The position numbers and the translations under genes are program-made. Shown here piece by piece: positions 1 through 14,811 of a stretch of DNA of 64,000 nt. Within the stretch, counting starts at the first letter, position 1. Every line of letters starts with the position of its first letter. Source of the stretch: an uncultured Planctomycetales bacterium (GTDB lineage: Bacteria > Omnitrophota > Gorgyraeia > Zapsychrales > JANLHA01); contig CAZAXH010000003.1 of the NCBI GenBank assembly GCA_964489065.1, forward strand, positions 63,104 to 127,103. The letters are read 5' to 3'. The notes under the pieces are model-generated. The model made no database searches, was not told where the DNA came from, and saw nothing but the letters and a program-made list of their open reading frames with translations.

Positions 1-3000
1 CTGTTCCGGACAGCTTTTCCTCTACCAGCGTCATAAAACTAACCAAAGCATCCACATCTTCTGCCGATTCCACGTCAGCTTCCATTTCGATAGTAAGCAA
101 GGTACCGTCCGCTTCTATGTCGCCTTTTTCCTTCGCCTCTTCTATTTTGGCAACCAATTCTGTCGCCTCTTTTTCGGGATCAAAATCCTCTCCAATCGTT
201 TTTCTTTTTATTTGGATGTAATTCTTCCCAAGAAAAGACCCATCTCTGGCAATGGGACGGAAGGTAAAACCAAGAAAATCCCGGTAAAATTTTATATATC
301 CAGAATCGTGTGAAATTGCGGACGCTACATATTCAAAACTGCCCTTAAAATTCGTGATTGCCGACATCGCCGCCACTTGGGAAAAATTATCTACCCAGAA
401 ACCGACCCGGTTATCTTCCGCCATAATCAAAAACTGCAACCCCACTTCCTGGGCTATGTCTTCATCTGTTTTCTCTGCATCTTCTTTCAGGTCATCCGGA
501 ATTGCCATACTGTCATCCCAACCCCAAGCATACCACTCCTCCGGAGCATTATATCCACCCATTTGCTCTTTTGCTTCTTCTCTTTTTTCTTCAAGCTCTT
601 CTCTTTTTTCCTGGGCCTTCAACACAGTATCTAAAGTAATGCCACCCATTTTTTGCATGGACTCAACATAGGTGCCAAATGAAGACAAGTTAGCAAACTT
701 TCCGCCAGTGGGGGCTGTTCCAACCCAGTCGCCTACTAAATTAGAAGCAAACTCCTGAAAAGCATTCCCTGTTACATTTAAGAAAATAGATCCTATGTCT
801 ACTTTTTTCGTCCCATCAGTCTTACCACCCGCTTTTTGTTGTTCCTCATAAGCTTTTGTCCCAATGGGTGCCAAATCGGAAGTTTTGAACATCCCGGCTA
901 TCGAGGCGAAAATACCTTCCGTAAGAACAGACCCCAAGAAAATTAAACTACATGTCCAAAATTGCTTGGCCCGCTCGTCCTTGTCACGTGTTTTCCCATC
1001 CGCCCCTTCGGCTTCTGAAAAATCTTCTTTACCAAAAAGAGCAAGGGCCAACAACATAGAAACTAGCGTTTGAACCGCACCCCGCCAAATCGTTCCCAAA
1101 AAAGATCCCTGAACAAACGCTTTTTCAAAAGTCCCATCACCATCATTATCAATCATGGTGACATTATGCGTTCCAGAATAATAATTTGTTACTGTTTGCC
1201 CTTCTTCGGTTGTAGTTGTAGTAGATTTTATATTCTCTTTCGTTCCAACATTTTTATAAGTATATATATCGTTTCCTTCTTCATCTTTTTCTTTCTTAAC
1301 ATCATACGTTGTTCCCCACGTGTCTCCATAAGCAATCACGTTAAACAGCGTCATCCCAATTAAAGACCCAAAATTGCCAAGAATTTGAGACATCATTGAG
1401 CTAGGGTCAAATTTATCCTTAAATATATACCTTAATATATAGCTTCCTAATCCCCCGGCCAACCGCTGCAGAGCCATCATGCCCATGTCTGCCAGGTTTA
1501 GCTTAAAAGAACTATAGCTATTCATTGCGTCTGCTTTAACTTGCGCAATCTGATCACCCGTAAGAGGTCCTTTACCATCAGCTTTTGCCTGAATTTGCGC
1601 TTTTTCAACCTGCTGATTAGCATATTGTTGCTTTGACGCCTCCGAGTCATCTTTCATACCCAGCATTTCACGCCAACCCAAACCTTCACTATCACCGTCA
1701 GCCGCGTCTTTAAACAATGCGTCTGCCGCCGCGTCCAACCCCATAGCAACAACACCCACGGCAATATCCGCAGCCAAAGAAGAAATCAAACCAACTAATA
1801 CTGACTTCAAAATCTCACTATCTATATCCAAATGCTCTTCTAAAAATTCAGCAATTTTAACTTGCACATAAGCTTTGATCATCCCGACTGTAAAGCCTTT
1901 AGCAAAAGCCTTAGCAATATCCCACAACCGCTGAGACACTGTCATGCTCGTTGTGGAAGTAGTACTCGTTGCCGTAGTTGCGGCACCGCCGCCAAACATC
2001 TTATTAAAAAACCCTTTAATCCCATTCCATATATTTTGAAGTTTTGTTATCAAACTTTGCCAAGCGCTTTGAACCCCTTCACCAAACCCACCATACCCGG
2101 CAATTAAACCTCCTGCGGCTCCAATTAAACCGCCAATAAGCGCTGCTTTAGTAGCATCTTTTCCCGTCATCTTCGCAACCGCCCACCCGAGAGCCGCACC
2201 AACAGCCGCACCAACAGCCGCATTTTGTAAAGCTGTGCTGAGAGAATTTGTAGCGGTCGAACTGGCGGTAGATTCTAAGGCGGTTTTACCGCCTCCAGCA
2301 GCAGCCTCTCCCGCGGCGTTTCCTGCCTCCGAGCCGATCCCTGCCATATAATTCAAACCTACGGAAACAGCAATTGTAATAGCTGTGCTTAAAATAAACG
2401 CATTGCTTTCACAATCGTCCCCGCCGTCATTCACACAATTAACATAATACGCTTCCCCTACGGCAGAACCAAAAGTTGAAGAAGCCAAAGAAATAATAAC
2501 TCCCAGAGGGCCACCCATAATATAAGCAATAACAATTTGGACGACCATAGAAATTACAGCCGCAAAAACGTCCGCTCCCGACAACAATCCAGGCAAGTCA
2601 TCTGATCTGTCAACCCATTTATTCCCCCACACAAACGCCTTCATGGCGTCTGATATGGGTTCATATTCCATATTTTCCTGCCGGTCCAAATTAACAGCCA
2701 ACACAAAACCGCTTATCTTTTCTTTAAATTCGTTGCGCGGCATGGATTGTTGTTTGCCTATATCAGAGAAGTAAACATTTTCCGCATCAACAGATGTAAC
2801 GGTAACAAAATGTTCAGAACCAAAATTCGCAATAAAAGGCGTATTTAAATAAAGAATATCTTGGGTGTCAACCTTGACAGCCTGAACATTCAGCCCATAC
2901 CCGCGGGCGACTTCTTCAATTGCAAAAAGTGAAGTCTTTAAAAATTTCTCTCCTGGTTCCACAATATTATTCAATAAATCTACAGAAAGAGTTGCTACCG

Positions 3001-3580
3001 CAACCTCAGCCAAGGAAGATGGAATTTTACTATACTCAAGAACATCTTTTAAAGCATAAACCCCGCAGTTAAACGGATGAATGTTTGGATCGCTCACCCA
3101 CGCCTTAACAGAATGGACATAATCCGGGGTAATTTTTCTTTTTGCGGAAATTAAAACACTATTTTCTTTAGAAACAGGACCCGAATCTCCCGAAGACAAA
3201 CCAAGCTTAATTTGGGCATTTTCTTTATTTTCAATTTGTTCCAAAAGATTAGCAACGCCAGAAGAAATCTGCGTCGCCATAATTTCTTCTTGAGAAATTT
3301 GAGGAGACTGCGAATCCAACGTCATTACTTGAACAGGAGCAGAAGTTGTTCCCCAAAGAACAGCAGGATTATAGTTAAAAGCCCAACTAACCTGCTCCGG
3401 GAGGAAAATTAAAACAACAAGAAGGGCTACCGTACGAATCCAAGACTTGAAACGACTCTTAAAAACTTCTTCTTTATATTCATTTTGGACAATATTTTTA
3501 GATGCAGCGCCTAACCCATTCTCTAATAATGCATTAGAGACAGTTCTGGCACCAAATTTTTTGTCCAATCTAAAATTCAT
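1..3580 (-). CDS. Giant membrane protein, partial (C-terminus lies beyond the window start): N-terminal signal/TM helix, papain-like peptidase C39-like domain, then a long Gly/Ala/Thr-rich polytopic region
   Basis: Minus-strand frame is open from the ATG at 3578-3580 to position 1; the ORF track lists no minus ORF here, consistent with a frame running off the edge. Hand translation: MNFRLDKKFGARTVSNALLENGLGAASKNIVQNEYKEEVFKSRFKSWIRTVALLVVLIFLPEQVSWAFNYNPA; Cys motif HPFNCGVYALKDVLEY; His/Asp motif EHFVTVTSVDAENVYFSDIGKQQSMPRNEFKEKISGFVLAV, matching the C39 CG..L / HFVV..DP pattern. Downstream region is Gly/Ala-rich with many hydrophobic helices (hand translation, unverified in detail). Confidence 0.55.
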   Translation of the reverse strand, partial: MNFRLDKKFGARTVSNALLENGLGAASKNIVQNEYKEEVFKSRFKSWIRTVALLVVLIFLPEQVSWAFNYNPAVLWGTTSAPVQVMTLDSQSPQISQEEIMATQISSGVANLLEQIENKENAQIKLGLSSGDSGPVSKENSVLISAKRKITPDYVHSVKAWVSDPNIHPFNCGVYALKDVLEYSKIPSSLAEVAVATLSVDLLNNIVEPGEKFLKTSLFAIEEVARGYGLNVQAVKVDTQDILYLNTPFIANFGSEHFVTVTSVDAENVYFSDIGKQQSMPRNEFKEKISGFVLAVNLDRQENMEYEPISDAMKAFVWGNKWVDRSDDLPGLLSGADVFAAVISMVVQIVIAYIMGGPLGVIISLASSTFGSAVGEAYYVNCVNDGGDDCESNAFILSTAITIAVSVGLNYMAGIGSEAGNAAGEAAAGGGKTALESTASSTATNSLSTALQNAAVGAAVGAALGWAVAKMTGKDATKAALIGGLIGAAGGLIAGYGGFGEGVQSAWQSLITKLQNIWNGIKGFFNKMFGGGAATTATSTTSTTSMTVSQRLWDIAKAFAKGFTVGMIKAYVQVKIAEFLEEHLDIDSEILKSVLVGLISSLAADIAVGVVAMGLDAAADALFKDAADGDSEGLGWREMLGMKDDSEASKQQYANQQVEKAQIQAKADGKGPLTGDQIAQVKADAMNSYSSFKLNLADMGMMALQRLAGGLGSYILRYIFKDKFDPSSMMSQILGNFGSLIGMTLFNVIAYGDTWGTTYDVKKEKDEEGNDIYTYKNVGTKENIKSTTTTTEEGQTVTNYYSGTHNVTMIDNDGDGTFEKAFVQGSFLGTIWRGAVQTLVSMLLALALFGKEDFSEAEGADGKTRDKDERAKQFWTCSLIFLGSVLTEGIFASIAGMFKTSDLAPIGTKAYEEQQKAGGKTDGTKKVDIGSIFLNVTGNAFQEFASNLVGDWVGTAPTGGKFANLSSFGTYVESMQKMGGITLDTVLKAQEKREELEEKREEAKEQMGGYNAPEEWYAWGWDDSMAIPDDLKEDAEKTDEDIAQEVGLQFLIMAEDNRVGFWVDNFSQVAAMSAITNFKGSFEYVASAISHDSGYIKFYRDFLGFTFRPIARDGSFLGKNYIQIKRKTIGEDFDPEKEATELVAKIEEAKEKGDIEADGTLLTIEMEADVESAEDVDALVSFMTLVEEKLSGT

Positions 3581-3844
3581 ATATTTTTCTAAAAATTAAC
3601 CAGCTTATTAAAGAAACCGTGGGCTAACTGGTGCCCGTGAATGCAAGTGGAAGGAATATTTTGAAGCATACTGAAAGAAAGCAACCAAAAATTATTTATT
3701 TTCTTACTGTGTCCTCCTGTTTTTCTAAAAATTTCTGTCATTTTTCTTTCCCAAAAACAAAAAACTACCAAGTGGTCTCTTGGTAGCCCAATAATTTACT
3801 TGAATGCTCTGAAGAGTTTAAGCAATGAAAATAATAACATTATT

Positions 3845-3930
3845 TTGTTGGCCCTCTTTCAGGAGATTCTTATAAGGCAACCTTTTACCACCTGCCCTAT
3901 AAGTATAGCATTATTATAGAGGGGCAACAA
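3845..3930. repeat. Long imperfect inverted repeat (about 86 nt): outer arms TTGTTGGCCCTCT / AGAGGGGCAACAA, inner arms CTTATAAGG / CCCTATAAG; lies in the 640-bp AT-rich gap between tadC and the giant gene
   Basis: Direct reading: outer arms 13 nt with 1 mismatch, inner arms 9 nt with 1 mismatch; the element sits about 265 nt upstream of the giant-gene start codon. Confidence 0.4.
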
Positions 3931-4224
3931 TGAATATGCAAATTTTTTTTAAAAAAAATGTTGTTTATTTACAACAGGTTACGCGCCAAAAGAAATATTT
4001 TTTAAAATTGTCTTTGAGGATTTTTTGAAAAAACGAGGAAATCGCTTTCTTATTTTTTATAATTTTCACAAAAACTATATTCAGTTCACCTCTTGCACTA
4101 CAGAATGGACAAATGCAGAGTGGACATTTTGTTGTTATTAAAATTTTGGCAAAAAACATGCAATAAGAATATTTTTTGATATTTGATCAAAAATATTCTT
4201 ATTTATAAACCCTGTCTATTGATT

Positions 4225-5112
4225 TTATTTTCCACCCAACTCGGACAACGGATTTTCTTCAATAAACTGAAGAAATATCGGTCCGGCAACAAGAATTCCG
4301 ACAACAGGAAAAATAAAGAACAAAAGCGGCACAAGCAATTTCATAGGAGCCTTCATCGCCATTTGTTCTCCTCTGCGGAACCTGGCAAGACGCATATCTT
4401 CAGACAAAAGATTTAAGGCCTCAGAAACCGAAGTCCCCATTTTGTCTGCCTGAAGAAGCGTTCTAGAGAAAGAAGAAACTTCCGGAAGGTCAAATTTTAC
4501 CGCCAAATCTTTTAAGGCATCCCGGCGGGTCTTTCCAACGTTAATTTCCTGAAGAAGAATATTCAACTCATTAATCATAACTGACGGCGTTGACTTCTCA
4601 ACAACCCATTTCAAAGCCAACATAAAGTCCAAACCGGCATTAACACAAAGCCCCAACAAATCAATAGCGTTCGGCAATTCTTTCACAATAACAGCTTTTA
4701 CTTTTTTAATTTTTCCTTTAAGCCAAAATTCCGGCATCATATAACCAATGGAAAGGCTCATAAAAAGCCAAAAAAGAATCATGTCCGGCTGAATCATTTG
4801 AAAAGTTAATAAAAGCACCAACATGATTCCGACTTCCTTCATTAAAAAAAACTCTTCCGGGGTTATATTCACATGCGCCACAGACAAATCTTTGGAAATT
4901 CTTTTCCGCAGCCCCCCTGAACACAATGGTTTATTAAACATGGCTAAGGCTCGCAATATGGACGTAGCGCTTTTTTTCTTCTTTGCCGGAGCTACTTCAT
5001 ATCCAAAAGCTTTCAATGTCGGCCTACTCTCCATTTCCACAGGAAAAAGCCCAACAACAAAACTAAATCCCGCCAAAAAACACATCGTTAAAATAAATGT
5101 CAGCATAAACAT
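4225..5112 (-). CDS. tadC: Tad pilus assembly inner-membrane protein TadC-like (T2SS F-domain family)
   Basis: 295 aa, polytopic; GspF/TadC-like stretch LGLCVNAGLDFMLALKWVVEKS...LLQADKMGTSVSEALNLLSEDMR; located next to the tadB-like gene. Confidence 0.7.
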   Translation of the reverse strand: MFMLTFILTMCFLAGFSFVVGLFPVEMESRPTLKAFGYEVAPAKKKKSATSILRALAMFNKPLCSGGLRKRISKDLSVAHVNITPEEFFLMKEVGIMLVLLLTFQMIQPDMILFWLFMSLSIGYMMPEFWLKGKIKKVKAVIVKELPNAIDLLGLCVNAGLDFMLALKWVVEKSTPSVMINELNILLQEINVGKTRRDALKDLAVKFDLPEVSSFSRTLLQADKMGTSVSEALNLLSEDMRLARFRRGEQMAMKAPMKLLVPLLFFIFPVVGILVAGPIFLQFIEENPLSELGGK

Positions 5113-5144
5113 AATAGAACCCTCTTCTTTAATTAGTCTTTTTA

Positions 5145-5999
5145 TTAAAAATCTTTAAAACTACTAATCTTCCAAATCATAAAGGCCCCTATAATTTCCG
5201 AAAAAACCGCATAAACAAGCATCCCTCTTCCTATCGTGGATTTAAACATATGATCAAAAAAGGTCGGATTTGTCCCATAAATAATCATAAAAAACATAAC
5301 GGGCAGAGCCGACATAACAACGCCTTGTATCTTCCCCTGAACAGTCAACGTATCTATCTGGGATTTGATTCTTTTTTGTTCACGAATAACATTCACAATA
5401 CGCTGAAAAATGCTGGGCAAGTTTCCTCCTGTTTCCCTGGCCAACAAAATAGCCGTTGTCATCTGCTGGACAGCAGGAGAAGGTTGCCGATTATAAAGGT
5501 GATTCAGGGCTTCGTCCAAAGAAACCCCCATATTATTTTCCCCTAAAACAATCGAAAATTCCTGATTTATAGGATCTGGCATTTCTTCCACAACCGCTTC
5601 CATAGCTTGAACCAAACTCAATCCTCCGCGGAAGGAACTGGACATAATCATAAGGGCATCTATCAACTGGTCATCGAATTTCCTCCTGTTTTGCCCTATA
5701 AGAAGGTTATTATAAACCCCAGGAAAAATTAAACCAAAAACCAAGCCGATTCCTATGCCAAAAAGCCGCAAGTCTTCCGGGAAAAACATATAACAGCCCC
5801 CGCCAAAAACAATAGGAGCGATAACATAAAATCGGGTAATTTTTTCGACTTTGGACCGAGGCAAAACCCTGTCCAACCGGGAAGAAAGCTTGTGCGCCCG
5901 TTTCTGTCCGACCTCCACCGATTTGTTATAAATCAATGGAATAACAAAATAGCCAAACATTGTGGCCGATATAAATATACAAAATAGAGAAACATACAT
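5145..5999 (-). CDS. tadB: Tad pilus assembly inner-membrane protein TadB-like (T2SS F-domain family)
   Basis: 284 aa, TM helices; GspF-like motifs DDQLIDALMIMSSSFRGGLSLVQAMEAV...ARETGGNLPSIFQRI. Confidence 0.7.
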   Translation of the reverse strand: MYVSLFCIFISATMFGYFVIPLIYNKSVEVGQKRAHKLSSRLDRVLPRSKVEKITRFYVIAPIVFGGGCYMFFPEDLRLFGIGIGLVFGLIFPGVYNNLLIGQNRRKFDDQLIDALMIMSSSFRGGLSLVQAMEAVVEEMPDPINQEFSIVLGENNMGVSLDEALNHLYNRQPSPAVQQMTTAILLARETGGNLPSIFQRIVNVIREQKRIKSQIDTLTVQGKIQGVVMSALPVMFFMIIYGTNPTFFDHMFKSTIGRGMLVYAVFSEIIGAFMIWKISSFKDF

Positions 6000-6023: not shown

Positions 6024-6464
6024 CTAATAATCAATAAGCTCTCTGCCTACATCCCTACAACGCGCCCCTGCTGCGGTTGATTCACTGCATCCTTCCAAAC
6101 ACTGCAGACACTGCGTGATGTACCCTGTTGTTCCTGGCGGCAGAGTACAGTCGCATGGCGCCGCATCGTAACAATCGCGTGAAATCCACCGGTTAATTAA
6201 CGTACACGGCCGTGTCGGGCCTGTTCCCGAGGTGCAATGCGTGGCATCAAAAAAACACTCTAACGTCCCGCCTCCGTCTCCATAATTCCCAAAAGGCCGG
6301 GGATCATACTGACGTCCCGCGCCAAAAGAATCTCCGGCCTTTTTCCAACTGCCATAATAAGCCCTTAAAATATAACCTTGAAAAACAAATAAGCTAGAAA
6401 GAAGAAAAACAATCAAGGTCATATACTCTAATATAGATTGGGCATGCTTCTTGTGCCGCAACAT
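6024..6464 (-). CDS. Cys-rich Flp/TadE-family prepilin-like protein (146 aa)
   Basis: N-terminus MLRHKKHAQSILEYMTLIVFLLSSLFVF has a class-III (Flp-type) signal, but with Ala rather than Gly before QSILEY; C-terminal part contains 10 Cys. Confidence 0.5.
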   Translation of the reverse strand: MLRHKKHAQSILEYMTLIVFLLSSLFVFQGYILRAYYGSWKKAGDSFGAGRQYDPRPFGNYGDGGGTLECFFDATHCTSGTGPTRPCTLINRWISRDCYDAAPCDCTLPPGTTGYITQCLQCLEGCSESTAAGARCRDVGRELIDY

Positions 6465-6496
6465 GTTTTTCCTTTTAAAACAAACAGTTACAATGC

Positions 6497-9400
6497 TTAG
6501 TTCAGCCCATTAAGAAAATTTTCGTCACACTCCACAAAACGAACCCGAAAGCCTTTATCTCCGCTATAGCCGGAACCGCCTCCCAAAAAATATTGCGCGC
6601 AGGTTGCCGTTGAATATCCGTATCTTAATAAACTTTCATGAATAAAATTCCAGCAATCCAAATACTCCGCCGAACCTCTCGGAGGCGTGGCGCTGGCTGT
6701 GGGTGTTTGGTTAATCATAAACGCATTTCTCCACCCCCATTCCCAGGTTTGGGCCGCGATATTGGGGTCAATCATAATAGCGCAAGTGACCTCCAAATCC
6801 GTCGGGTCCTGATCTGACCCTTCCGGATGATAATATTGCGGTTTCCATAAAAGGGTGCCATCCGGAAAACGTATTTTACTACCAACCGTGTCTTCATCAT
6901 AACGGATCACCCGGGCCTTAACACGGCCTGTCATCTCCTTCAATTCATAACAACGTTTCATCCCCCAACTTTTTGTATAGGTATCAATATACGGCCACCG
7001 ATCTGTTCCACATGCGCTGTTGCACCGCCCGGGAGTTCGCACCTCCACCTTAACAACATGCCAGTCTCCCCGGATTGTATTATAAACATCTTTGGGTTCG
7101 TCCTGCCAAGCATAAATGGCAAAAGACGTGGTGGCCGGAGGATAAATATTCCCCCAAGATTTACAGGCGTCAATAAGACCTTGAGCCGGACCGGAAAGAA
7201 AAGCATCAATATGGCTAAGCCCGTTCCATAATATATTTCTTATCTGAATCGCTTCTTCCTCGCGTCCTGCGAGCATTTCCCAACGCTTTGCCATTTTCAT
7301 TGACTGGTTCGCCGCAGCCAAAACACTCTGGTCTAATAAGTCTTTCCATTCTCCGGGGTCGGTTTCACCGCACGACCCAATGTTAGTATCCAATGCTGTT
7401 TCAATGGCATCAAAGAACGGGGTTGCGCCGACGCCGCAAAGCTGGCCACAGGTCCCCAAAAGATCTGTCGGCAACCCATACCAGGTACAAGAACAATTCA
7501 ATGCGTCGGATAAAACCGTGGGGCTGTCACAATCAATAGTTGTTGCCTGATCCCGGCATTGGTTCGGGAGGTTTAACGTTGGGTTAGCATTGCAAAAAGC
7601 ATACATAGCTCTTAAATTTGTTAACAGAGATGTATCTGGGGCAGGCAAAGTGGCGTTGTCAGATGTGGGAACAAAAGCAGGAATCCCGTACCCGCCAGGC
7701 AACGAAGAACAATCATCATTGCAGGTTGGAATAGACTCTGTACCCAAGCACAAAGTTAACGCGATCAAATCCGCCTCGGGCATAGGAATCGTGAACCGTA
7801 AGGCATCAAACCCAGGGACAAGCGACCTGGGCAATATCGCGCAACTGTGGCCGGAATTCATAGGATCGTTGTCACAATCCCACTTACACGCATCAAATTT
7901 CTCAAAATTTCCCACCGCCTGGGAACCAGTTACAGGATAAATAATCGGATTCCCGGATGCATCCTGCGCCAGATCATGAAGATTCCATTCCAGACAAGCA
8001 ATAACATCCTCTAAGTCGCCCCGGCCATCCCCGCTAACATCAAAAGACGCCTGTTCTTCCTGGCTTACCCCGGGACACTCCAAACCGTTATATCCTGACT
8101 GAAAACCCAGATATGCGGGATCCGCATATTTATTAGCAGCAACCTGCGGGGGCGGAACACACCAAACCGCCGGGTCAACCGCCGCACTATTGATAAAACA
8201 CCCGGAACCAACATAAAGATCCGCGTCGGGAGGATTCAGCCAGGCCCCAATTGGAATATAAAAAGAAGCCAAATCTTCGCGCCAAATATACCAGTATCCG
8301 CCATCCACATCCCCGGTGCAGCTCCCCGGACAATCCGCAGCATTCCCGCTCGGGCACGGCGTTTCAATCCAGGTCGCGGCTTCCTCGTACCACTCATCGA
8401 AATGGGATTCCAGGTAGTCCTTATCTTTATCCATAACTCCCGTCGCCCACTCATAAAATTCCGGCAACCCATAAATAAATTCATCTAATTTATCATCGGG
8501 CCAATTTGTGGACACATATTCAAAATTATTTGCTGCCTGCGTCCTGTCTATGGGCGGCGTCGGCGGTAAGGCCCCGCCTGTCCCGCAATCACAATCAATC
8601 GGCCAGGTTGTCCCTGTTTCTGGGTCCACTTCCACGCAAGGAGGAGATCCTCCGGGAGGGGCGCCGGCTTTTCTGCATTCGGCCATATAAGGCCATTCAT
8701 CCGGCGGATCACAGAATTGATCGCCACCTCTTTTCCAACCGCCTTCATCCTGCGCGCAAACAGCGTCGTCGGCCAAAATAGCATCAATGTTCGGCACCAA
8801 ATCCAGTAGCTGCGGTGGATCTCCGTCCGCCCCGGTGTTTGCGGCATCCACACACCAACCGCCGCTATACAAGGCATTATCTGGCGTCTCAGGAAGCTCA
8901 AGCGCGGTGCCAATCTCCGCCGGATAAGAAGTTATTCCGGCACAAACAGCCGGGACTGTTCCTGCGGCAACACCATCCACATCACATAAATGACACTCCA
9001 AATTGTCCCGGGCCGGGTGAATATCAGGAGGATCAGGAAGCAACGCGCCATAAGTTAACGACTGTAAATCCATGCCCCAATCCGCCAATTTATAAAAAAA
9101 CGGAAAAATACCAGGCTTATCGTCGGCAGAATAATAACCGGTTGCGTCTTCCATATAGAAATCATATTCCAAAGCGCCGGAACGGATCAGCTGAGAGTGG
9201 TCCAGGGTCGCCCCGGTGCCATCAATCAAATAATTCCAATTCGGCCTGGCTGGATTAACTGCATATTGATGATGTTCGTCGTCAAAACCAAACCATTCAC
9301 GAAATGAAATGTTGGCCGGATCCCAAGCGCCGGCATTTTTATTATTCGTGGAATCTTCGTTCATCCCTCTAAAAATATACGGATAAGACAACAAAGCATT

Positions 9401-10546
9401 AGGCGCGGCCGGAGGAAGAGGCGTGTGATATGGGCTTCGTTGATTACAAGTGGCAGGATTCCCTCCGGGAAAGCCCTCCTCCTCCACGCAAGTTCCCGTG
9501 CCACAACAAGCGGGACGAACAGAAGCATCGACACAACAGGGATCACACATAGAAGGAAAACGCATATCCCCGACAGGGTTGGACGGGCAACATGGATGCC
9601 CGGGGTTACGCTGACAATCAATGGGATCAACAAGACCCCAATCATCGGTGTCACACCCCCAATCCGTACAGATATCGGGGTTACCTCCATACAAGAAATC
9701 CGTAAGCGCGGATAAGAATTCGTCAAGGATTGATAAATTTAAATCCGGGATACCCTGAAGCCGACGGGTATAATAATAGGCAAAACGGGAAATATAATCC
9801 GGACCCGAGGCTTTATCATTAGGATCAGCCAAATTGCCAAAGGCGCTGTCGGTATCAAAGTCGAATAAATCCGGTATTTGAGCGGGGTCATTCACGGCCG
9901 TCATCAAAGCACTTTGTACCCCCAACTCCACAGCCATTTCTTTCGGCCCCAGGGAATCTCCCATCATTTTATTCCACATGGACGTTATGCCAGGCTGGGT
10001 TATCGTTACATCAATCACAGCAGCGGCCACGACAAGCACCGCGGCAACAATCGCGGCGGCCAAACCCCAGCCTTCACATTGATATGTCGCCGCACAAATA
10101 ACGACAAGAACCACGACAACAATGGCCGCAATGAGTTTGACCAAAAATCCGGTCCAGGCACAAATCTTCGTTTCTCCATCCAAAGAGGTCATAAACAGCA
10201 TCTGACCATAACTGGCAATAAAAGACGCCATTTTAGAGGCCGCCGTGTTAGCGGCAATGATTGTCAGGGTTTTGCCGTGAGAAATTCTGCCAATATTAAC
10301 CGTGACCGCATATAAAATCAATCCTATCGCCGCGGCTAAAATCAGAATTAAGCCAACCTGTCCGGCAATGTGTCTGGAAGGAATGGTTGGAGTAGTTAAG
10401 GAAGCGCCTTCCTCTTTGGGAGCCAAGAAAAAAGCATTCCATTTTTTCCTTTGCCATTTCCTCGCCTTTCTCACTCCTTTATATAAAAAATGCAACAAGT
10501 TGGCCCCCGGGGTAAAAATGTTAAGATTAAGGCGTTTCCTCTCCAA
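6497..10546 (-). CDS. Giant (1349 aa) Cys/Asp/Pro-rich, probably extracellular protein with N-terminal TM helices; candidate pilus-associated adhesin or tip protein
   Basis: Uninterrupted ORF; hydrophobic N-terminal segments (LILILAAAIGLILYAV, LIAAIVVVVLVVICAATY, AAAIVAAVLVVAAAVI), then Cys-rich stretches (CTDWGCDTDDWGLVDPIDCQRNPGHPCCPSNPVGDMRFPSMCDPCCVDASVRPACCGTGTCVEE) and many DP/DxD motifs; start overlaps the upstream TadE-like gene by about 20 nt (operon-like). Confidence 0.6.
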   Translation of the reverse strand: MERKRLNLNIFTPGANLLHFLYKGVRKARKWQRKKWNAFFLAPKEEGASLTTPTIPSRHIAGQVGLILILAAAIGLILYAVTVNIGRISHGKTLTIIAANTAASKMASFIASYGQMLFMTSLDGETKICAWTGFLVKLIAAIVVVVLVVICAATYQCEGWGLAAAIVAAVLVVAAAVIDVTITQPGITSMWNKMMGDSLGPKEMAVELGVQSALMTAVNDPAQIPDLFDFDTDSAFGNLADPNDKASGPDYISRFAYYYTRRLQGIPDLNLSILDEFLSALTDFLYGGNPDICTDWGCDTDDWGLVDPIDCQRNPGHPCCPSNPVGDMRFPSMCDPCCVDASVRPACCGTGTCVEEEGFPGGNPATCNQRSPYHTPLPPAAPNALLSYPYIFRGMNEDSTNNKNAGAWDPANISFREWFGFDDEHHQYAVNPARPNWNYLIDGTGATLDHSQLIRSGALEYDFYMEDATGYYSADDKPGIFPFFYKLADWGMDLQSLTYGALLPDPPDIHPARDNLECHLCDVDGVAAGTVPAVCAGITSYPAEIGTALELPETPDNALYSGGWCVDAANTGADGDPPQLLDLVPNIDAILADDAVCAQDEGGWKRGGDQFCDPPDEWPYMAECRKAGAPPGGSPPCVEVDPETGTTWPIDCDCGTGGALPPTPPIDRTQAANNFEYVSTNWPDDKLDEFIYGLPEFYEWATGVMDKDKDYLESHFDEWYEEAATWIETPCPSGNAADCPGSCTGDVDGGYWYIWREDLASFYIPIGAWLNPPDADLYVGSGCFINSAAVDPAVWCVPPPQVAANKYADPAYLGFQSGYNGLECPGVSQEEQASFDVSGDGRGDLEDVIACLEWNLHDLAQDASGNPIIYPVTGSQAVGNFEKFDACKWDCDNDPMNSGHSCAILPRSLVPGFDALRFTIPMPEADLIALTLCLGTESIPTCNDDCSSLPGGYGIPAFVPTSDNATLPAPDTSLLTNLRAMYAFCNANPTLNLPNQCRDQATTIDCDSPTVLSDALNCSCTWYGLPTDLLGTCGQLCGVGATPFFDAIETALDTNIGSCGETDPGEWKDLLDQSVLAAANQSMKMAKRWEMLAGREEEAIQIRNILWNGLSHIDAFLSGPAQGLIDACKSWGNIYPPATTSFAIYAWQDEPKDVYNTIRGDWHVVKVEVRTPGRCNSACGTDRWPYIDTYTKSWGMKRCYELKEMTGRVKARVIRYDEDTVGSKIRFPDGTLLWKPQYYHPEGSDQDPTDLEVTCAIMIDPNIAAQTWEWGWRNAFMINQTPTASATPPRGSAEYLDCWNFIHESLLRYGYSTATCAQYFLGGGSGYSGDKGFRVRFVECDENFLNGLN

Positions 10547-10823
10547 AAATATTGCTATTAACTGTCGCGTTTATTTTTGTAATCGAATAAAACATCGGCC
10601 GGACCTGTTCTAACGGACCCGCTGGCTGAGACGTGCTTATAGGAGAAACTAACAAGGCATCGTGAGAATTAAAACGCTTCATCAAATCAGTCCCTGTCCA
10701 GGCAAAGACCTGAATCATGCCAACGACAAGCAAAACAACCCCGATCATCCCGAACATAAATTCTAAAGACACTTGTCCCGGGCGAATATTTTTTTTAAAT
10801 CTAGTCTTTCCGTTTTTTTTCAT
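10527..10823 (-). CDS. tadE: TadE-like pseudopilin (Flp-family N-terminus G/QVSLEF)
   Basis: MKKNGKTRFKKNIRPGQVSLEFMFGMIGVVLLVVGMIQVFAW; start at the second Met (10823) is supported by GAGGGG placed 7 nt upstream; the ORF track start 10838 lacks an RBS. Confidence 0.6.
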   Translation of the reverse strand: MKKNGKTRFKKNIRPGQVSLEFMFGMIGVVLLVVGMIQVFAWTGTDLMKRFNSHDALLVSPISTSQPAGPLEQVRPMFYSITKINATVNSNIFGEETP

Positions 10824-10843
10824 AACGATTCCCCTCATTCTTA

Positions 10844-12559
10844 TTACGGGGCATATCTTCTAATCCAGCGCCTCCCTCTTAGATCGGCAATCCGGCTTCT
10901 CACAAATAACATTAAATTATCCCGGTCAAAACACGTCAATTGTGCGACCCCCGCCATATAACAATTTGTTCCTGTGCTTGGCCGGGTACAAACCTCAACC
11001 GGATTGGGGATTCCGTAAACGCCGTTAGCGCTCGCCCAAGCGGAAGTTCCCCATTCTCGGGGATTCACGTCATCCGCACAAAACCGACCGGTGTCTCTTG
11101 TCAACTGAACTTGTCGCTCAATCACATCTAATTGATCATGCCGTTCCGTGCTTCGGGTATATTGCGACGTATTAGCCGTAAAAATAGGGCCTTCTTCCGT
11201 CCTAAAATAGGTCCCCTGGCCTGTTTCCTGGCCTGGATCAGATTCTGTAAATGTATATACCTGTGCGCCTTCTGAAAAACCAACCGTGCGGGCGAGACAT
11301 TTATAATTTGAACAGACGCCCAAAGTGTTGTTTCCGGTCGTCGTTGATCCAATAACACAATTCCCTGTCGGGGTGGCGCCGCAAGCCCCGCCTATGGTTC
11401 CGGCAAAACGCCATTCCCCTGCCTGGCGGGCATCGGACATAAAAGAGCTGGACATGTCGCCTTCTTCGCTGTCAATTACGTTCACGGTTTGAAGCACTCC
11501 GGACCCCAAGGCTGAATAACTCAGGATGGACTCTTCATAATAATCCCCATCAACATCAACGCTTTCATTCTTCGAGGACTTTTCTCCGCTGGGATCAACA
11601 AAAATTCCCGGCACCCCGCTCCACGGCAAAGTCATCGCTGTTCCATCGACGACTCCGGCTACTAAAAACCACTGCCAAAACTGAATATCCCGGCTCCCGG
11701 CCGGGACATCAGGCACGCCATCAAAATCATAATCAAAGCGGATATCTTGAGGAAGATTGTTACAATTTTTAACACATGTTGTCCCGAAACAGCATGTTTT
11801 ACTTTTGGGATAATTCCCTGAAATGGTAAACAGCAACGTGCAACCTGCGGAGTTCGTTACTAAATCATATTCTCCTGTGCCGGTCCCTCCGGTCGCATAA
11901 ACACATTCCCCCATATAACCTAATTCATAATCTCCGCCATAGCCCACATAAACACAGCTTGAATAACTAACACAACTATTCCACCAACACAGCCCATAAG
12001 GAGGGCTTGCTGGCGGGGCGTTGGAATTAAAATACGCCGGAGCCGAGCCGTTACACGCGGGGATCCAAGATGGCCGGCTTCCGTCAGAATTCGCCAGAGT
12101 AACCGATTTAAAATCCGCGCCCAATAACGGAAAACGTTGCCCATTGATATAAACATCCGAAAGAGGAAGATCCCTTCGATCTCCAAAATCTGTCGGCCGG
12201 AACAAATTTTTTGTCATGGAAGCACTGGCGCTGGCTGTCATAGGGAACCTGTCCCGGGATCCAAATTTTTTACCAGCATCAACATTCAATCTGTCTTCCA
12301 AAATAACAATAGAGGCTACATTCCGGGAATTGGCTCCCTCGTCACCGGCAAAACCAATATATTCACCTTCAGAAGTCCGGTAAGACTCACTCAAAGCAAG
12401 ACGTAAAGCCCGTAATTGCATATTATTAAGCATGCTGGCCTGCATTCCAGATTTAATAATAGAGCCAATGATAAAAATAAGCATGGCCCCAAAAATAGCC
12501 AGTTCCGTTCCTGACTGCCCCAACCGAGAAACTCGAAATGTCCGCGACTCTCGTTTCAT
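10844..12559 (-). CDS. tadG: TadG-like large pseudopilin: TadE-type N-terminus (RLGQSGTELAIFGAMLIFIIGSII) followed by a large Cys/Gly/Thr-rich domain (571 aa)
   Basis: Class-III signal G/QSGTELAI; C-terminal region rich in Cys (CWWNSCVSYSSCVYVGYGG...KTCCFGTTCVKNCNN). Confidence 0.6.
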   Translation of the reverse strand: MKRESRTFRVSRLGQSGTELAIFGAMLIFIIGSIIKSGMQASMLNNMQLRALRLALSESYRTSEGEYIGFAGDEGANSRNVASIVILEDRLNVDAGKKFGSRDRFPMTASASASMTKNLFRPTDFGDRRDLPLSDVYINGQRFPLLGADFKSVTLANSDGSRPSWIPACNGSAPAYFNSNAPPASPPYGLCWWNSCVSYSSCVYVGYGGDYELGYMGECVYATGGTGTGEYDLVTNSAGCTLLFTISGNYPKSKTCCFGTTCVKNCNNLPQDIRFDYDFDGVPDVPAGSRDIQFWQWFLVAGVVDGTAMTLPWSGVPGIFVDPSGEKSSKNESVDVDGDYYEESILSYSALGSGVLQTVNVIDSEEGDMSSSFMSDARQAGEWRFAGTIGGACGATPTGNCVIGSTTTGNNTLGVCSNYKCLARTVGFSEGAQVYTFTESDPGQETGQGTYFRTEEGPIFTANTSQYTRSTERHDQLDVIERQVQLTRDTGRFCADDVNPREWGTSAWASANGVYGIPNPVEVCTRPSTGTNCYMAGVAQLTCFDRDNLMLFVRSRIADLRGRRWIRRYAP

Positions 12560-12579
12560 AGCGTAAAAATTACGGCGTA

Positions 12580-12888
12580 TTAATATGCGGCAACTCTTGA
12601 TGCCCCGTATTTCTCCTCAGTCATATTGGAATCATCATCCCGCATCGTCCACACCCCGGCATTCACCGGAATTGTGGTAATACGTGTAGAAGAAAATCCG
12701 CTGGTTCGTTCGGTAATATCTGTATTGGTCACCCTAGGGTCATATTGGTCTCCCATCCCGTCAACGGATTCCTTCCACCGCCCCTGAACCCCCCGCTTAA
12801 AATATGTGCCCATCCCCAGGAATACTCCCAAAATAATCGTAATCAGCGTCACATATTCCAAGGTGCTTTGTCCGCGTAATAACCTCAT
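12580..12888 (-). CDS. flp: Flp-family prepilin paralog 7 (102 aa, extended C-terminus)
   Basis: MRLLRGQSTLEYVTLITIILGVFLGMG: G/QSTLEY processing motif plus hydrophobic helix. Confidence 0.7.
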   Translation of the reverse strand: MRLLRGQSTLEYVTLITIILGVFLGMGTYFKRGVQGRWKESVDGMGDQYDPRVTNTDITERTSGFSSTRITTIPVNAGVWTMRDDDSNMTEEKYGASRVAAY

Positions 12889-12915
12889 ACTCCCTACCCT
12901 CTTTTTTAAAACTTT

Positions 12916-13254
12916 TTAATTATCTCTATACTGAAACCCCAGATTGGTCGTTGTCGTCGTGACCATTTGCGAATACGAACCATCATAATCAAGCCGCGTT
13001 TCCCCAAAATCTTCCCTTAACCTTTTAACAGAAGCTTGCTCCGTATCAACAATCTGTTCGACCAAATGGCCGTCGAGACCTCCGGGCTGCTCCGCCCCGG
13101 ATTGATTGCCGACCTGATCAGAAACAACCCTGACCATCCCCTGCACCGCTCGTCTCAACATGGGGGTGAGAGAAATCAAGACCGCCACTACGACACTAAC
13201 TAGCATAGCATACTCTAAAAATGTTTGCGCAGAATTTTTATGTTTTCTTCTCAT
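12916..13254 (-). CDS. flp: Flp-family prepilin paralog 6 (112 aa)
   Basis: KNSAQTFLEYAMLVSVVVAVLISL (A/QTFLEY); Thr-rich C-terminus. Confidence 0.65.
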   Translation of the reverse strand: MRRKHKNSAQTFLEYAMLVSVVVAVLISLTPMLRRAVQGMVRVVSDQVGNQSGAEQPGGLDGHLVEQIVDTEQASVKRLREDFGETRLDYDGSYSQMVTTTTTNLGFQYRDN

Positions 13255-13271
13255 TTTTTATTAAAAAAGCC

Positions 13272-13628
13272 TTAATCGGCCAGCGCCGGCGGTAACTGTG
13301 TTTGATTTGTGATTGCACTGATTTGATGTTCGTAAAGCTGTTCGACAATACCTGAGCCTAAAGGAAAAGCCCCTTCTTCTGTCATGGTCGTTGTCGTGTC
13401 CGTGTATCTTGTCGTCATTGAATTGCTATAATACGGCTCATATTGATAGTAAAAAGTTCCCGTATAATCATCCTGTACTGTGCTGGCCATATAATGCAAC
13501 GCATCTCTCGTTCTTCCCTGCAACAAACGTCGGACATAAGTTCCCATGACCGAAATAATTGACACAACCACAAAAAATGTCGTAGCGTATTCAACAAAAG
13601 AGTTTTGACCTTTTTTATTAAGCTTCAT
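13272..13628 (-). CDS. flp: Flp-family prepilin paralog 5 (118 aa)
   Basis: MKLNKKGQNSFVEYATTFFVVVSIISV; C-terminal QYEPYY motif shared with paralog 3. Confidence 0.7.
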   Translation of the reverse strand: MKLNKKGQNSFVEYATTFFVVVSIISVMGTYVRRLLQGRTRDALHYMASTVQDDYTGTFYYQYEPYYSNSMTTRYTDTTTTMTEEGAFPLGSGIVEQLYEHQISAITNQTQLPPALAD

Positions 13629-13750
13629 ATATATTATTTAATGTTCAAACTGATTATAAATAAAGTATGGCTTACCCGAAAGTTGTTTTCCCCCTCAAGT
13701 AAGCCACACTTTATTTAGCTTAAGTCATTCTGGTTATTTAATAAACAAAA

Positions 13751-14071
13751 TTAACCCCAGAACTCCTGTTCAGCATTAATGATAACCTGGTTCTGCAATG
13801 TCTCGGTAACTTCATCCGTATTCAATGTCGTGGTAGAAACACCATAGCCGAATGTTTCAGCCGTGTTACTAACAGTGGTTACAACGCGACGGATGTTCGA
13901 GTTGCCCGGTGAATATTGATCACCGATATCGTCTGTTGCACTCTTTAATCTACCCTGCACACCTCTTTTGATGTAAACTTGGATAGATAAAAGAGCACCG
14001 ATGACGATGATAATCAAGACGGCGTACTCTAAAGTACTTTGCCCTTTTATTTTTCTTAGAAACTTAAACAT
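13751..14071 (-). CDS. flp: Flp-family prepilin paralog 4 (106 aa)
   Basis: KIKGQSTLEYAVLIIIVIGALLSI; GGGAGG RBS immediately upstream of the start. Confidence 0.7.
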   Translation of the reverse strand: MFKFLRKIKGQSTLEYAVLIIIVIGALLSIQVYIKRGVQGRLKSATDDIGDQYSPGNSNIRRVVTTVSNTAETFGYGVSTTTLNTDEVTETLQNQVIINAEQEFWG

Positions 14072-14125
14072 TGAAAATTCCTCCCTATAAAATTCAGATT
14101 TTCGTTACACTAAGTTATCTGGATC

Positions 14126-14500: not shown

Positions 14501-14539
14501 TTATGTTTCCTCCATTTACTTTTGTCTCTTGATAATTAA

Positions 14540-14746
14540 TTACGGATTATCATAACGAGATGTTTGTAACCGATTGGCCATATCAAACATGCCATTCGTA
14601 CCCGTACGCAAGGTTGAATTAAACGCTTGGTTAAAAATACCATTAGTCGGGTTTAAGAAAATAATCAGAATGGCAATAACACCTGTCACCAAAATAATAT
14701 ACTCGAGGGTGCTTTGCCCTTTCTTTTTTCTGTTCTTGTATACCAT
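14540..14746 (-). CDS. flp: Flp-family prepilin paralog 2 (68 aa)
   Basis: MVYKNRKKKGQSTLEYIILVTGVIAILIIF; AGGAGG RBS upstream. Confidence 0.75.
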   Translation of the reverse strand: MVYKNRKKKGQSTLEYIILVTGVIAILIIFLNPTNGIFNQAFNSTLRTGTNGMFDMANRLQTSRYDNP

Positions 14747-14811
14747 TAGTAATTCCTCCTATAGTTTGATCCACACCACTCAAAGCTAGGCGGGTTTTCC
14801 CTCCCGCCACT

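What the first reader, a model, noticed from the sequence alone, without database searches (positions are those of the whole stretch)
1..3580. Giant ORF running off the window start: secreted C39-like cysteine peptidase domain fused to a huge Gly/Ala-rich membrane protein, immediately downstream of tadC
Hand translation shows a signal/TM helix followed by a papain-like C39 signature (CGVYAL ... HFVTVTSVDAENVYFSDIG). The frame then stays open for more than 3.5 kb to the window edge, with a glycine-zipper-like hydrophobic composition. C39 domains are normally cytoplasmic parts of bacteriocin ABC exporters. Here the domain follows a signal peptide and sits in a pilus locus that lacks a prepilin peptidase, so its role is open (processing of pilus or adhesin components, or a peptidoglycan-related function). 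It may be one of the giant genes typical of some uncultivated nanobacteria.
Basis: partly seen in the sequence, partly recalled or inferred. Interest (0 to 1): 0.7.

Follow-up and report, generated by a model that had tools for sequence, protein, structure and literature searches.

The report
C39 protease head of giant gene
This is the start of one of the giant genes of the uncultivated phylum Omnitrophota: a membrane-anchored C39-type cysteine protease domain followed by a long membrane protein, next to a Tad pilus gene cluster, an arrangement already described in preprints.

Summary
On the minus strand an ORF starts at ATG 3580 and runs without a stop to window base 2 (1193 codons). It encodes a signal-anchor helix (aa 46-66) and a C39 peptidase domain. 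The Pfam hit scores 39.9 bits against a cutoff of 22. The AlphaFold model matches LahT150, PCAT1 and ComA. Cys172, His257 and Asp273 are conserved in 83/83, 83/83 and 82/83 relatives.

The module heads ORFs in 87 Omnitrophota species genomes. Where at least 9 kb of downstream sequence is held, 40 of 42 ORFs are still open (more than 3,650 aa). Database members reach 7,858 aa and are still marked partial. The closest orthologue (L003) is colinear with the window ORF over aa 1-1113 and continues to at least 3,679 aa. tadC and tadB lie directly upstream in 53 of 57 loci.

West-Roberts et al. 2023 (bioRxiv) already describe N-terminal C39 domains near signal peptides on Omnitrophota giant proteins, preceded by this conserved secretion or pilus locus. 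This is therefore a new member of a known kind.

The most likely role is a built-in, outward-facing processing protease for the giant protein or for co-exported partners. This is inferred, not shown. The pilin-peptidase idea is unlikely: the pilin leaders lack Gly-Gly, and the domain is predicted to sit on the wrong side of the membrane.

The parts
2..3580 (-). First 1193 codons of a giant ORF. The start is ATG 3580 and the C-terminus lies beyond the window edge.
   Evidence: One search shows no in-frame stop. One search shows 59.5% identity and colinearity over aa 1-1113 with the L003 ORF, which stays open for at least 3679 aa. In one search, 40 of 42 related ORFs are still open after more than 3650 aa.
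3383..3445 (-). Signal-anchor (TM1) helix, aa 46-66, within the conserved motif S-R-F-x-x-W-x-R ... F-x-P-x-Q-x-S-W-A-F-x-Y-N-P.
   Evidence: One search gives the hydropathy peak, with 5 K/R before the helix and 0 after it. One search gives motif conservation of 80-83 of 83. Across relatives, K+R averages 2.34 before the helix and 1.00 after it.
2693..3160 (-). C39 (double-glycine type) cysteine peptidase domain, aa ~141-296. The catalytic residues are Cys172 (3065-3067), His257 (2810-2812) and Asp273 (2762-2764).
   Evidence: Pfam 39.9 bits; family profile against PDB hits LahT150 (6mpz) at E=5e-5 and PCAT1. AlphaFold pLDDT of 85-95 in the core, with the Cys at the N-terminus of a helix. Foldseek match to 6mpz at E=3.8e-7, target-normalised TM-score 0.71. 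C 83/83, H 83/83, D 82/83, and His-to-Asp spacing of 16.
2588..2635 (-). Conserved post-domain motif F-V-W-G-x-K-W-x-D-x-S-x-x-L-P-G (aa 316-331), just before the next membrane segment.
   Evidence: W318 in 82/83, G319 in 83/83, W322 in 78/83.
2345..2578 (-). Hydrophobic hairpin (aa ~335-376), a loop with a conserved Cys pair (C382 and C390 in the window), and a further hydrophobic segment (aa 394-412).
   Evidence: One search gives the hydropathy. One search gives the Cys columns, conserved in 71/83 and 64/83 relatives.
2090..2227 (-). Gly/Ala-rich glycine-zipper-like segment (aa 452-497).
   Evidence: Gly-zipper_YMGG at E=0.005, below threshold; 47% G+A in aa 401-500; the same weak hit in L003.
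2..2089 (-). Poorly conserved remainder (aa 498-1193). Soluble stretches alternate with hydrophobic segments at about aa 594-612, 733-751, 831-849 and 877-895. No family hits.
   Evidence: In one search, aa 1016-1113 match the N-terminus of the separate 1943-aa gene that follows the C39 gene in L001.
3581..4224 (-). AT-rich spacer between tadC and the giant ORF. It holds a promoter-like site (3942-3913), a hairpin plus T-run (3789-3762), and a 50-aa upstream ORF ending 8 nt before the giant ORF's ATG.
   Evidence: The spacer is conserved only in the closest relative, L003. It has no Rfam match.
4225..5999 (-). The tadC-like (4225-5112) and tadB-like (5145-5999) platform genes directly upstream.
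   Evidence: T2SSF hits at E=5e-14 and 1e-17; homologues lie directly upstream of the C39 head in 53 of 57 related loci.
6024..24264 (-). The rest of the Tad-like locus:
- pseudopilin-like proteins of 146, 1349, 103 and 571 aa;
- seven Flp/class III pilin genes (12580-15036);
- a 570-aa protein of unknown function;
- DUF192;
- a TadZ-TadA fusion;
- a secretin with a TonB_C domain;
- RcpC/CpaB;
- a Rotamase_2 PPIase.
   Evidence: This matches the conserved locus upstream of giant genes described in West-Roberts 2023.

Best explanation
The region is the 5' end of an Omnitrophota giant gene of the class called Archaeovorins in West-Roberts et al. 2023.

The product starts with a short, variable cytoplasmic tail and a conserved signal-anchor helix. 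A catalytically competent C39 (double-glycine type) cysteine peptidase domain follows, predicted to face the periplasm. After it come a conserved FVWGxKW...LPG motif, a membrane hairpin with a Cys-pair loop, and a glycine-zipper segment. The rest is thousands of poorly conserved residues with further membrane segments.

The gene sits directly downstream of a Tad-type (type IVc) pilus or secretion locus. It is transcribed away from the nearby replication origin.

The most likely mechanism, which is inferred, is this. As the giant polypeptide is threaded into and across the inner membrane, the head protease acts on the outer face of that membrane. It cuts the giant protein itself, or co-exported partner proteins of the predation or adhesion apparatus, into mature pieces. 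In PCAT exporters the C39 domain trims cargo during export. Here the domain has no ABC transporter and is on the opposite side of the membrane.

Shown here: the ORF, the domain, the fold, the invariant triad, the giant length in orthologues, and the conserved neighbourhood. Inferred: the topology, the protease activity and the substrate.
For: - ORF and start codon.
- C39 identity: Pfam 39.9 bits against a cutoff of 22. The family profile hits LahT150 (6mpz) at E=5e-5 and PCAT1. The AlphaFold model (pLDDT 85-95 in the core) matches 6mpz, PCAT1, ComA and the HlyB CLD over the whole domain, with target-normalised TM-score (TMt) about 0.7.
- Active enzyme: Cys172 83/83, His257 83/83, Asp273 82/83. 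The flanking Asn171 and Glu256 are invariant. His-to-Asp spacing is 16. The Cys sits at a helix N-terminus.
- Giant gene: the module heads ORFs in 87 species genomes. 40 of 42 are still open after at least 3,000 aa. L003 is colinear with the window ORF to aa 1113 and open to at least 3,679 aa. Library members reach 5,000-7,858 aa and NCBI still marks them 'partial'.
- Outward orientation: K/R are enriched before TM1. The ectodomain has only one Cys on average. A conserved Cys pair lies in a loop of the same parity. Preprints report predicted signal peptides.
- Linkage to the giant gene rather than strictly to Tad: 53/57 loci have tadBC upstream. L029 and L054 have C39-headed giants behind unrelated clusters.
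- Literature: the same architecture, the same locus and an autoprocessing proposal appear in West-Roberts 2023. A 24-protein PF03412 architecture cluster among Omnitrophota long proteins is reported.
Against: - No substrate or cleavage site was identified. A candidate double-Gly site about 200 aa after the domain (FGG, aa 529-531) is not conserved: 28 of 68 relatives have anything similar, and L003 has none.
- The canonical oxyanion-hole Gln six residues before the Cys is not conserved. The Pfam model aligns only the His/Asp half in the window protein.
- Topology rests on hydropathy and the positive-inside rule only. No dedicated predictor was available.
- The window ORF is seen for only 1193 aa. 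A few relatives have stops at 527-2256 aa.
- The key literature consists of preprints, with no biochemical data.
Confidence: 0.55

Rival explanations
1. The C39 head is the missing leader peptidase of the Tad system. On this view it removes the short leaders of the Flp pilins and pseudopilins encoded upstream, replacing the A24 aspartyl peptidase TadV/CpaA.
For: - No A24 peptidase is found anywhere in the 64-kb window (Pfam; GxGD motif scan).
- None is found within 10 kb of the C39 head in 82 related loci.
- The C39 head follows tadBC in 53/57 loci.
- KO K02278 (cpaA/tadV) is absent from the stored part of the KO tables in Seymour 2023.
Against: - All nine leaders end in x-G/A followed by Q-x-x-x-E-[Y/L/F] (Flp G/XXXXEY, class III type; Pfam Class_IIIsignal hit). 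None has the Gly-Gly that C39 enzymes need.
- By established knowledge of type IV pilins, class III leaders are cut at the cytoplasmic face, whereas the domain is predicted to face outward.
- C39-headed giants occur without Tad genes (L029, L054).
- PilD (K02654) is listed for at least two Omnitrophota genomes, so an A24 enzyme may be encoded elsewhere in the genome.
Confidence: 0.07
2. The domain is a non-proteolytic docking or tethering module, like the C39-like domain (CLD) of HlyB. It would hold the unfolded giant chain, or anchor it to the TadB/TadC platform, during export.
For: - HlyB CLD structures (3zua, 7sgr) are among the structural matches.
- The anchor-helix and post-domain motifs are conserved more strongly than a plain signal peptide would need, which suggests protein-protein contacts.
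- The oxyanion Gln is not conserved.
Against: By established knowledge of HlyB, CLDs have lost the catalytic Cys. Here Cys, His and Asp are conserved in 83/83, 83/83 and 82/83 sequences that share only 36-75% identity. That pattern argues for retained catalysis.
Confidence: 0.1
3. The domain is an effector protease aimed at the prey or host envelope, for example at Gly-containing cross-bridges or surface proteins. It would form part of the cell-wall-degrading arsenal proposed for these giant proteins.
For: - Giant Omnitrophota proteins are proposed to degrade prey surface polymers, and they increase on attachment to prey.
- The domain is predicted to be extracytoplasmic.
- A papain-like toxin (9l5u) is among the structural matches.
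Against: - The domain lies about 75 residues from the inner-membrane anchor at the very N-terminus. It is followed by more membrane segments, so it is tethered at the predator's own inner membrane.
- The closest sequence and structure relatives are leader-peptide peptidases, not wall hydrolases.
Confidence: 0.12
4. The window gene is a stand-alone membrane C39 protein of about 1,000-1,300 aa, separate from a following giant gene, rather than the head of one giant ORF.
For: Relatives with stops exist: 968 aa (L001), 1258 aa (L002), 1000 aa (L042), 745 aa (L067), and 566 and 527 aa (L005, L070). The window shows only 1193 aa.
Against: - The closest orthologue, L003, is colinear to aa 1113 and stays open to at least 3,679 aa.
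- Window aa 1016-1113 match the N-terminus of the gene that follows the 968-aa protein in L001. The window ORF has therefore already read through that junction.
- 40 of 42 relatives are open beyond 3,000 aa.
- In L001 the C39 gene is followed by a run of large ORFs (1943, 738 and 2265+ aa). That pattern looks like one gene broken by frameshifts, which is inference.
Confidence: 0.08

Closest known systems
Omnitrophota giant proteins ('Archaeovorins'; West-Roberts et al. 2023, bioRxiv 10.1101/2023.11.21.568195; prototype is the 39,678-aa protein of Velamenicoccus archaeovorus LiM)
   Same: - An N-terminal C39 domain next to a predicted signal peptide, in an otherwise domain-poor N-terminal region.
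- Many membrane segments.
- An upstream conserved locus with secretin, T2SSE, T2SSF, RcpC, a Rotamase_2 PPIase and class III signal peptide genes (searches compared).
- Restricted to the phylum Omnitrophota.
   Different: Only the first 1193 aa are in the window. The length criterion and the downstream glycosyl-transferase, hydrolase and SecA-like domains therefore cannot be checked. The window protein is at most 75% identical in the head module to any sequence found.
C39 peptidase domains of peptidase-containing ABC transporters (LahT150 6mpz, PCAT1 4ry2, ComA 3k8u)
   Same: The same fold over the whole domain (target-normalised TM-score about 0.7). The Cys/His/Asp triad is present with the same His-to-Asp spacing. 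The Pfam PF03412 hit is above threshold.
   Different: - No ABC transporter membrane or ATPase domains.
- The domain follows a signal-anchor helix and is predicted to be periplasmic, not cytoplasmic.
- The oxyanion Gln is not conserved.
- About 20% sequence identity.
- No Gly-Gly leader substrate was identified.
C39-like domain (CLD) of HlyB-type type I secretion ABC transporters (3zua, 7sgr)
   Same: The fold match, and an association with export of a very large, unfolded substrate.
   Different: CLDs lack the catalytic Cys and do not cleave. Here the triad is invariant. There is no ABC transporter.
Tad/Flp (type IVc) pilus systems (neighbouring locus only)
   Same: A TadZ-TadA ATPase, TadB and TadC, RcpC/CpaB, a CpaC-type secretin, and Flp pilins with G/XXXXEY leaders.
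   Different: - No TadV/CpaA peptidase in the locus or the window.
- Very large Cys-rich pseudopilin-like proteins of 1349 and 571 aa.
- The secretin is fused to a TonB_C domain.
- A giant gene is appended downstream.

Membership tests
Peptidase C39 (Pfam PF03412; double-glycine leader peptidase domain) | Profile HMM match above the curated threshold | tested here: met
   39.9 bits against a cutoff of 22, E=4.6e-10, aa 216-297. In relative L012 the match covers profile positions 13-128.
Peptidase C39 (Pfam PF03412; double-glycine leader peptidase domain) | Papain-like fold superposable on solved C39 domains | tested here: met
   The AlphaFold model (core pLDDT 85-95) matches 6mpz at E=3.8e-7 with TMt 0.71. 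It also matches PCAT1, ComA and HlyB CLD.
Peptidase C39 (Pfam PF03412; double-glycine leader peptidase domain) | Catalytic Cys, His and Asp present and conserved | tested here: met
   C172 83/83, H257 83/83, D273 82/83. His-to-Asp spacing is 16. The Cys lies at a helix N-terminus.
Peptidase C39 (Pfam PF03412; double-glycine leader peptidase domain) | Oxyanion-hole Gln about 6 residues before the Cys | tested here: not met
   Position -6 is variable (N/D/S/E/K). The conserved neighbours are N at -1 (83/83) and H/N at -4. Another residue may substitute.
Peptidase C39 (Pfam PF03412; double-glycine leader peptidase domain) | Cleavage after a Gly-Gly (or Gly-Ala/Ser) leader motif | not testable with these tools
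   No conserved double-Gly site was found after the domain. The pilin leaders lack GG.
Peptidase-containing ABC transporter (PCAT) | C39 domain fused to ABC membrane and ATPase domains, on the cytoplasmic side | tested here: not met
   No ABC_membrane or ABC_tran hit in the window ORF or in 3.7-kaa relatives. The NCBIfam PCAT models score 16-24 bits against cutoffs of 500-853. The domain is preceded by a signal-anchor helix.
Omnitrophota giant protein (Archaeovorin class, West-Roberts 2023) | ORF of at least ~7,000 aa (20 kb) | tested here: inconclusive
   The window shows 1193 aa and is still open. The orthologue L003 is at least 3,679 aa and still open. Family members reach 7,858 aa and are marked partial.
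Omnitrophota giant protein (Archaeovorin class, West-Roberts 2023) | N-terminal C39 domain next to a signal peptide, in an otherwise domain-poor N-terminal region | tested here: met
   compared with the description read.
Omnitrophota giant protein (Archaeovorin class, West-Roberts 2023) | Preceded by the conserved secretion or pilus locus (gspD/E/F-like genes, rcpC, Rotamase_2 PPIase, class III signal peptide genes) | tested here: met
   for the window. for 53/57 related loci. The description was read.
Omnitrophota giant protein (Archaeovorin class, West-Roberts 2023) | Downstream glycosyl-transferase, hydrolase, methyltransferase and SecA-DEAD domains, with pilZ genes after the gene | not testable with these tools
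   These parts lie beyond window base 1. The first ~3,700 aa of L003 and L012 carry only the C39 domain.
Tad/Flp pilus locus (neighbourhood) | TadA ATPase, TadB/TadC, RcpC/CpaB, secretin and Flp pilins with G/XXXXEY | tested here: met
Tad/Flp pilus locus (neighbourhood) | Dedicated A24 prepilin peptidase (TadV/CpaA) in the locus | tested here: not met
   No Peptidase_A24 hit among the window's proteins. No hydrophobic ORF with a GxGD motif in the window or in 82 loci. The rest of the genome could not be examined.

The most novel reading that the evidence does not exclude
The C39 head may be the functional link between the Tad-like machine and the giant protein. It would be an extracytoplasmic double-glycine-type protease that has left its ABC transporter. 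It would mature components of a Tad-dependent export or display pathway for a protein thousands of residues long (at least 3,679 aa in the closest orthologue). Those components could be the giant protein itself or the unusually large pseudopilins. That would make this a previously unrecognised secretion route. In its extreme form, the domain would also substitute for the absent TadV peptidase.
Probability: 0.1. Interest if true: 0.7.

Novelty: new member of a known kind. Interest (0 to 1): 0.35.

Why it matters
Giant genes of Omnitrophota are among the longest known in any organism. They are thought to build the attachment and predation apparatus of ultra-small bacteria, but how such proteins are exported and matured is unknown.

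The head module examined here is the one strongly conserved part. It comprises an anchor helix, an invariant C39 triad and a post-domain motif, and its position behind the Tad locus is also conserved. It is therefore the most tractable entry point for experiments on processing and export.

For this window the value is mainly correct annotation. The ORF is the start of such a gene. It is not a new kind of pilus peptidase.

Tried and rejected
1. Conserved double-glycine cleavage site. The FGG at aa 529-531, followed by a Thr/Ser/Ala linker, looked like a leader-type site and recurs in P0001, P0013 and P0014. Only 28 of 68 relatives have any similar motif, and the closest relative has none. Dropped.
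2. A small Gly-Gly-containing substrate peptide encoded upstream. A 50-aa upstream ORF ends 8 nt before the giant ORF's ATG and has GG at residues 9-10. It is shared with L003, but no equivalent exists in 60 other loci. It is treated as lineage-specific or chance.
3. A riboswitch or known RNA in the 644-bp spacer. No Rfam match with E below 0.1. The promoter-like and hairpin elements are conserved only with L003.
4. The 146-aa ORF (6024-6464) as a small TadV. It is another Flp-like pseudopilin (HAQSILEY leader, Cys-rich tail).
5. Search for an A24 peptidase near the locus. None in the window or within 10 kb in 82 loci. The supplement of Seymour 2023 lists PilD (K02654) for at least two Omnitrophota genomes.
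6. The first full-length homologue search was swamped by low-complexity words and gave only 20 hits. Repeating it with the head-module alignment, and then running the exhaustive profile search, gave 190 clusters at E<=1e-30.
7. The AFDB fold library was unavailable.
8. The PDB sequence search with the whole ORF found nothing meaningful.
9. NCBIfam has no specific model for this protein.

Full report
**Observation.** Translating the minus strand from 4300 downward shows a single frame that is open from 3595 to the window edge. ATG 3580 is the first Met, giving 1193 codons. The other two frames are closed. The closest relative found later (L003) has the same ATG and the same MNFRL N-terminus, so the start is well placed. 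The ORF listing does not show this ORF only because it runs off the window.

**The domain.**
- Pfam Peptidase_C39 (PF03412) matches aa 216-297 at 39.9 bits against a gathering score of 22. In the window protein only the His/Asp half aligns.
- I built an alignment of the head module from 17 homologues (A1). Its profile hits the double-glycine protease LahT150 (6mpz, E=5e-5) and PCAT1, with the HF(V) His and the Asp 16 residues later aligned.
- An AlphaFold model from A1 has pLDDT 85-95 across the domain, and the conserved Cys lies at the N-terminus of a helix.
- Foldseek against the PDB returns LahT150, PCAT1, the HlyB C39-like domain and ComA over the full ~140-residue domain, with target-normalised TM-score about 0.7.
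- Across 83 sequences (the window plus 82 loci), Cys172 and His257 are invariant and Asp273 is present in 82. Asn171 and Glu256 are invariant too.
- The Gln that forms the oxyanion hole in ComA-type enzymes (position -6) is not conserved.

I conclude that this is a genuine and most probably active C39-type peptidase with a somewhat divergent Cys-side half.

**Anatomy and topology.**
- A hydrophobic helix (aa 46-66) precedes the domain. It has five K/R in the 15 residues before it and none after. Across relatives the means are 2.34 and 1.00.
- The helix sits within a strongly conserved motif, SRFxxWxR...FxPxQxSWAFxYNP, conserved in 80-83 of 83 sequences. That is more than a plain signal peptide would need.
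- After the domain comes a conserved FVWGxKWxDxSxxLPG motif. Then follow a hydrophobic hairpin, a loop with a conserved Cys pair, another hydrophobic segment and a Gly/Ala-rich glycine-zipper-like stretch (aa 401-500, 47% G+A). Hydrophobic segments then alternate with soluble stretches.
- The simplest parse puts the C39 domain and the Cys-pair loop outside the cytoplasm. This is a prediction, not a demonstration.
- The protein as a whole is only mildly Gly/Ala-enriched, so the label 'huge Gly/Ala-rich membrane protein' is overstated.

**What the ORF belongs to.**
- Homologues are confined to Omnitrophota metagenome-assembled genomes (MAGs), apart from a few bins labelled otherwise.
- A scan of one genome per species found the head module in 87 genomes.
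- In the 42 loci that hold at least 9 kb after the start, 40 ORFs are still open at the end of the fetched DNA, that is more than 3,650 aa.
- L003 comes from a 3.36-Mb chromosome record. It is 75% identical in the head and 59.5% identical and colinear over aa 1-1113, and it stays open to at least 3,679 aa.
- The exhaustive profile search finds 190 clusters at E<=1e-30. Many are 4,000-7,800 aa long with the module at the N-terminus. NCBI names them 'cysteine peptidase family C39 domain-containing protein, partial', even on an 872-kb contig.
- Beyond the head, conservation decays quickly. No Pfam domain appears in the first ~3,700 aa of L003 or L012.
- A few relatives have earlier stops (527-2256 aa). 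In L001 the 968-aa C39 gene is followed, with a 4-bp overlap, by genes of 1943, 738 and 2265+ aa. Window aa 1016-1113 match the start of that 1943-aa gene. The window ORF has therefore already read through the junction that is split in L001.

**Neighbourhood.** Upstream on the same strand lies a complete Tad-type locus:
- TadC and TadB;
- pseudopilin-like proteins of 146, 1349, 103 and 571 aa;
- seven Flp/class III pilins;
- a 570-aa protein of unknown function;
- DUF192;
- a TadZ-TadA fusion;
- a secretin with a TonB_C tail;
- RcpC/CpaB;
- a Rotamase_2 PPIase.

Homologues of tadC and tadB lie directly upstream of the C39 head in 53 of 57 loci with enough flank. Two of the four exceptions were looked at. 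One has a glycosyltransferase cluster. The other has a different type IV filament cluster. A 644-bp AT-rich spacer separates tadC from the ORF. It holds a promoter-like site and a hairpin plus T-run, conserved only with L003. The window also holds the replication origin region, with dnaA, dnaN, gyrB and gyrA on one side and yidC, parA and parB on the other. GC skew changes sign at about 32-36 kb. The locus and the giant gene are therefore close to oriC and are transcribed away from it.

**Comparison with what is known.**
- West-Roberts et al. [quoted passage not shown] They suggest these may cleave the giant protein or other substrates.
- The same paper reports that the giants are preceded by a conserved locus of more than 10 subunits, with gspD/E/F-like genes, rcpC, a Rotamase_2 PPIase and class III signal peptide genes. 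The window matches this gene for gene.
- A 2026 preprint lists a 24-protein PF03412 architecture cluster among Omnitrophota long proteins and finds pilus or secretion genes flanking 13 of 14 giants.
- Seymour et al. 2023 identify the locus type as Tad.

The finding is therefore a new member of a described class.

**Mechanism.** The invariant triad argues for catalysis. That counts against a HlyB-type non-catalytic tether. The predicted outward orientation, the tether to the producer's own inner membrane and the kinship with leader peptidases make a maturation role most plausible: cutting the giant chain or co-exported partners at the outer face of the membrane. I could not identify a substrate. 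The one candidate double-Gly site is not conserved, and a small upstream ORF containing GG is confined to two genomes.

Three points count against it:
- The pilin leaders are ordinary Flp/class III leaders without Gly-Gly.
- Such leaders are removed on the cytoplasmic face.
- PilD is recorded for at least two Omnitrophota genomes.

A peptidoglycan role has no support from the fold matches.

**Verdict.** The ORF is the head of an Omnitrophota giant gene with an active-looking, probably periplasmic C39 protease, in the already described position behind the Tad-like locus. Interest is moderate to low for novelty. The head module is, however, a good experimental handle on how giant proteins are matured.

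Noticed in passing
window 26807-39222: This is the chromosomal replication origin region. dnaA, dnaN, gyrB and gyrA are on the minus strand, and yidC, parA and parB are on the plus strand. GC skew changes sign at about 32-36 kb. The Tad locus and the giant gene lie 10-35 kb to one side and are transcribed away from the origin.
   Followed up: partly
window 20357-22363 (-): The Tad secretin (Secretin plus T2SS-T3SS_pil_N domains) carries a C-terminal TonB_C domain after an acidic linker. This is an unusual fusion.
   Followed up: no
window 6497-10546 (-): A 1349-aa Cys-rich protein with an N-terminal hydrophobic segment has no Pfam or NCBIfam hit. A homologue sits upstream of tadB in nearly every related locus. 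Its neighbours of 571, 146 and 103 aa have Flp-like leaders, so these look like very large pseudopilins.
   Followed up: partly
window 3581-4224 (-): The spacer before the giant ORF holds a promoter-like site (3942-3913), a hairpin plus T-run (3789-3762), and a 50-aa upstream ORF (about 3591-3743) that ends 8 nt before the giant ORF's ATG. It is conserved with L003 only and has no Rfam match. It could be a leader or attenuator, or a small RNA.
   Followed up: partly
window 15376-17088 (-): A 570-aa ORF with no family hit in Pfam or NCBIfam sits inside the Tad locus, between the pilin genes and DUF192/tadZA.
   Followed up: no
window 17997-20159 (-): A TadZ-like ParA/MinD ATPase domain is fused to the TadA (T2SSE) secretion ATPase in one 720-aa protein.
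   Followed up: no
proteins P0072, P0084, P0089, P0108: Some Omnitrophota long proteins carry three or four internal copies of this C39 module far from the N-terminus (for example residues 1644-1797 of P0072). The module is therefore not only a head domain.
   Followed up: no
L029 1-9800; L054 1-9700: Two C39-headed giant ORFs are not preceded by tadBC. One follows a glycosyltransferase/DegT/WbqC cluster. The other follows a PilC-like T2SSF gene, a TraU homologue and a pilin with a phage tail-collar domain.
   Followed up: partly
L001 10001-22907: In this 348-kb contig the C39 gene (968 aa) is followed by ORFs of 1943, 738 and 2265+ aa, and the first junction overlaps by 4 bp. This may be one giant gene broken by frameshifts, or a genuinely split version.
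   Followed up: partly
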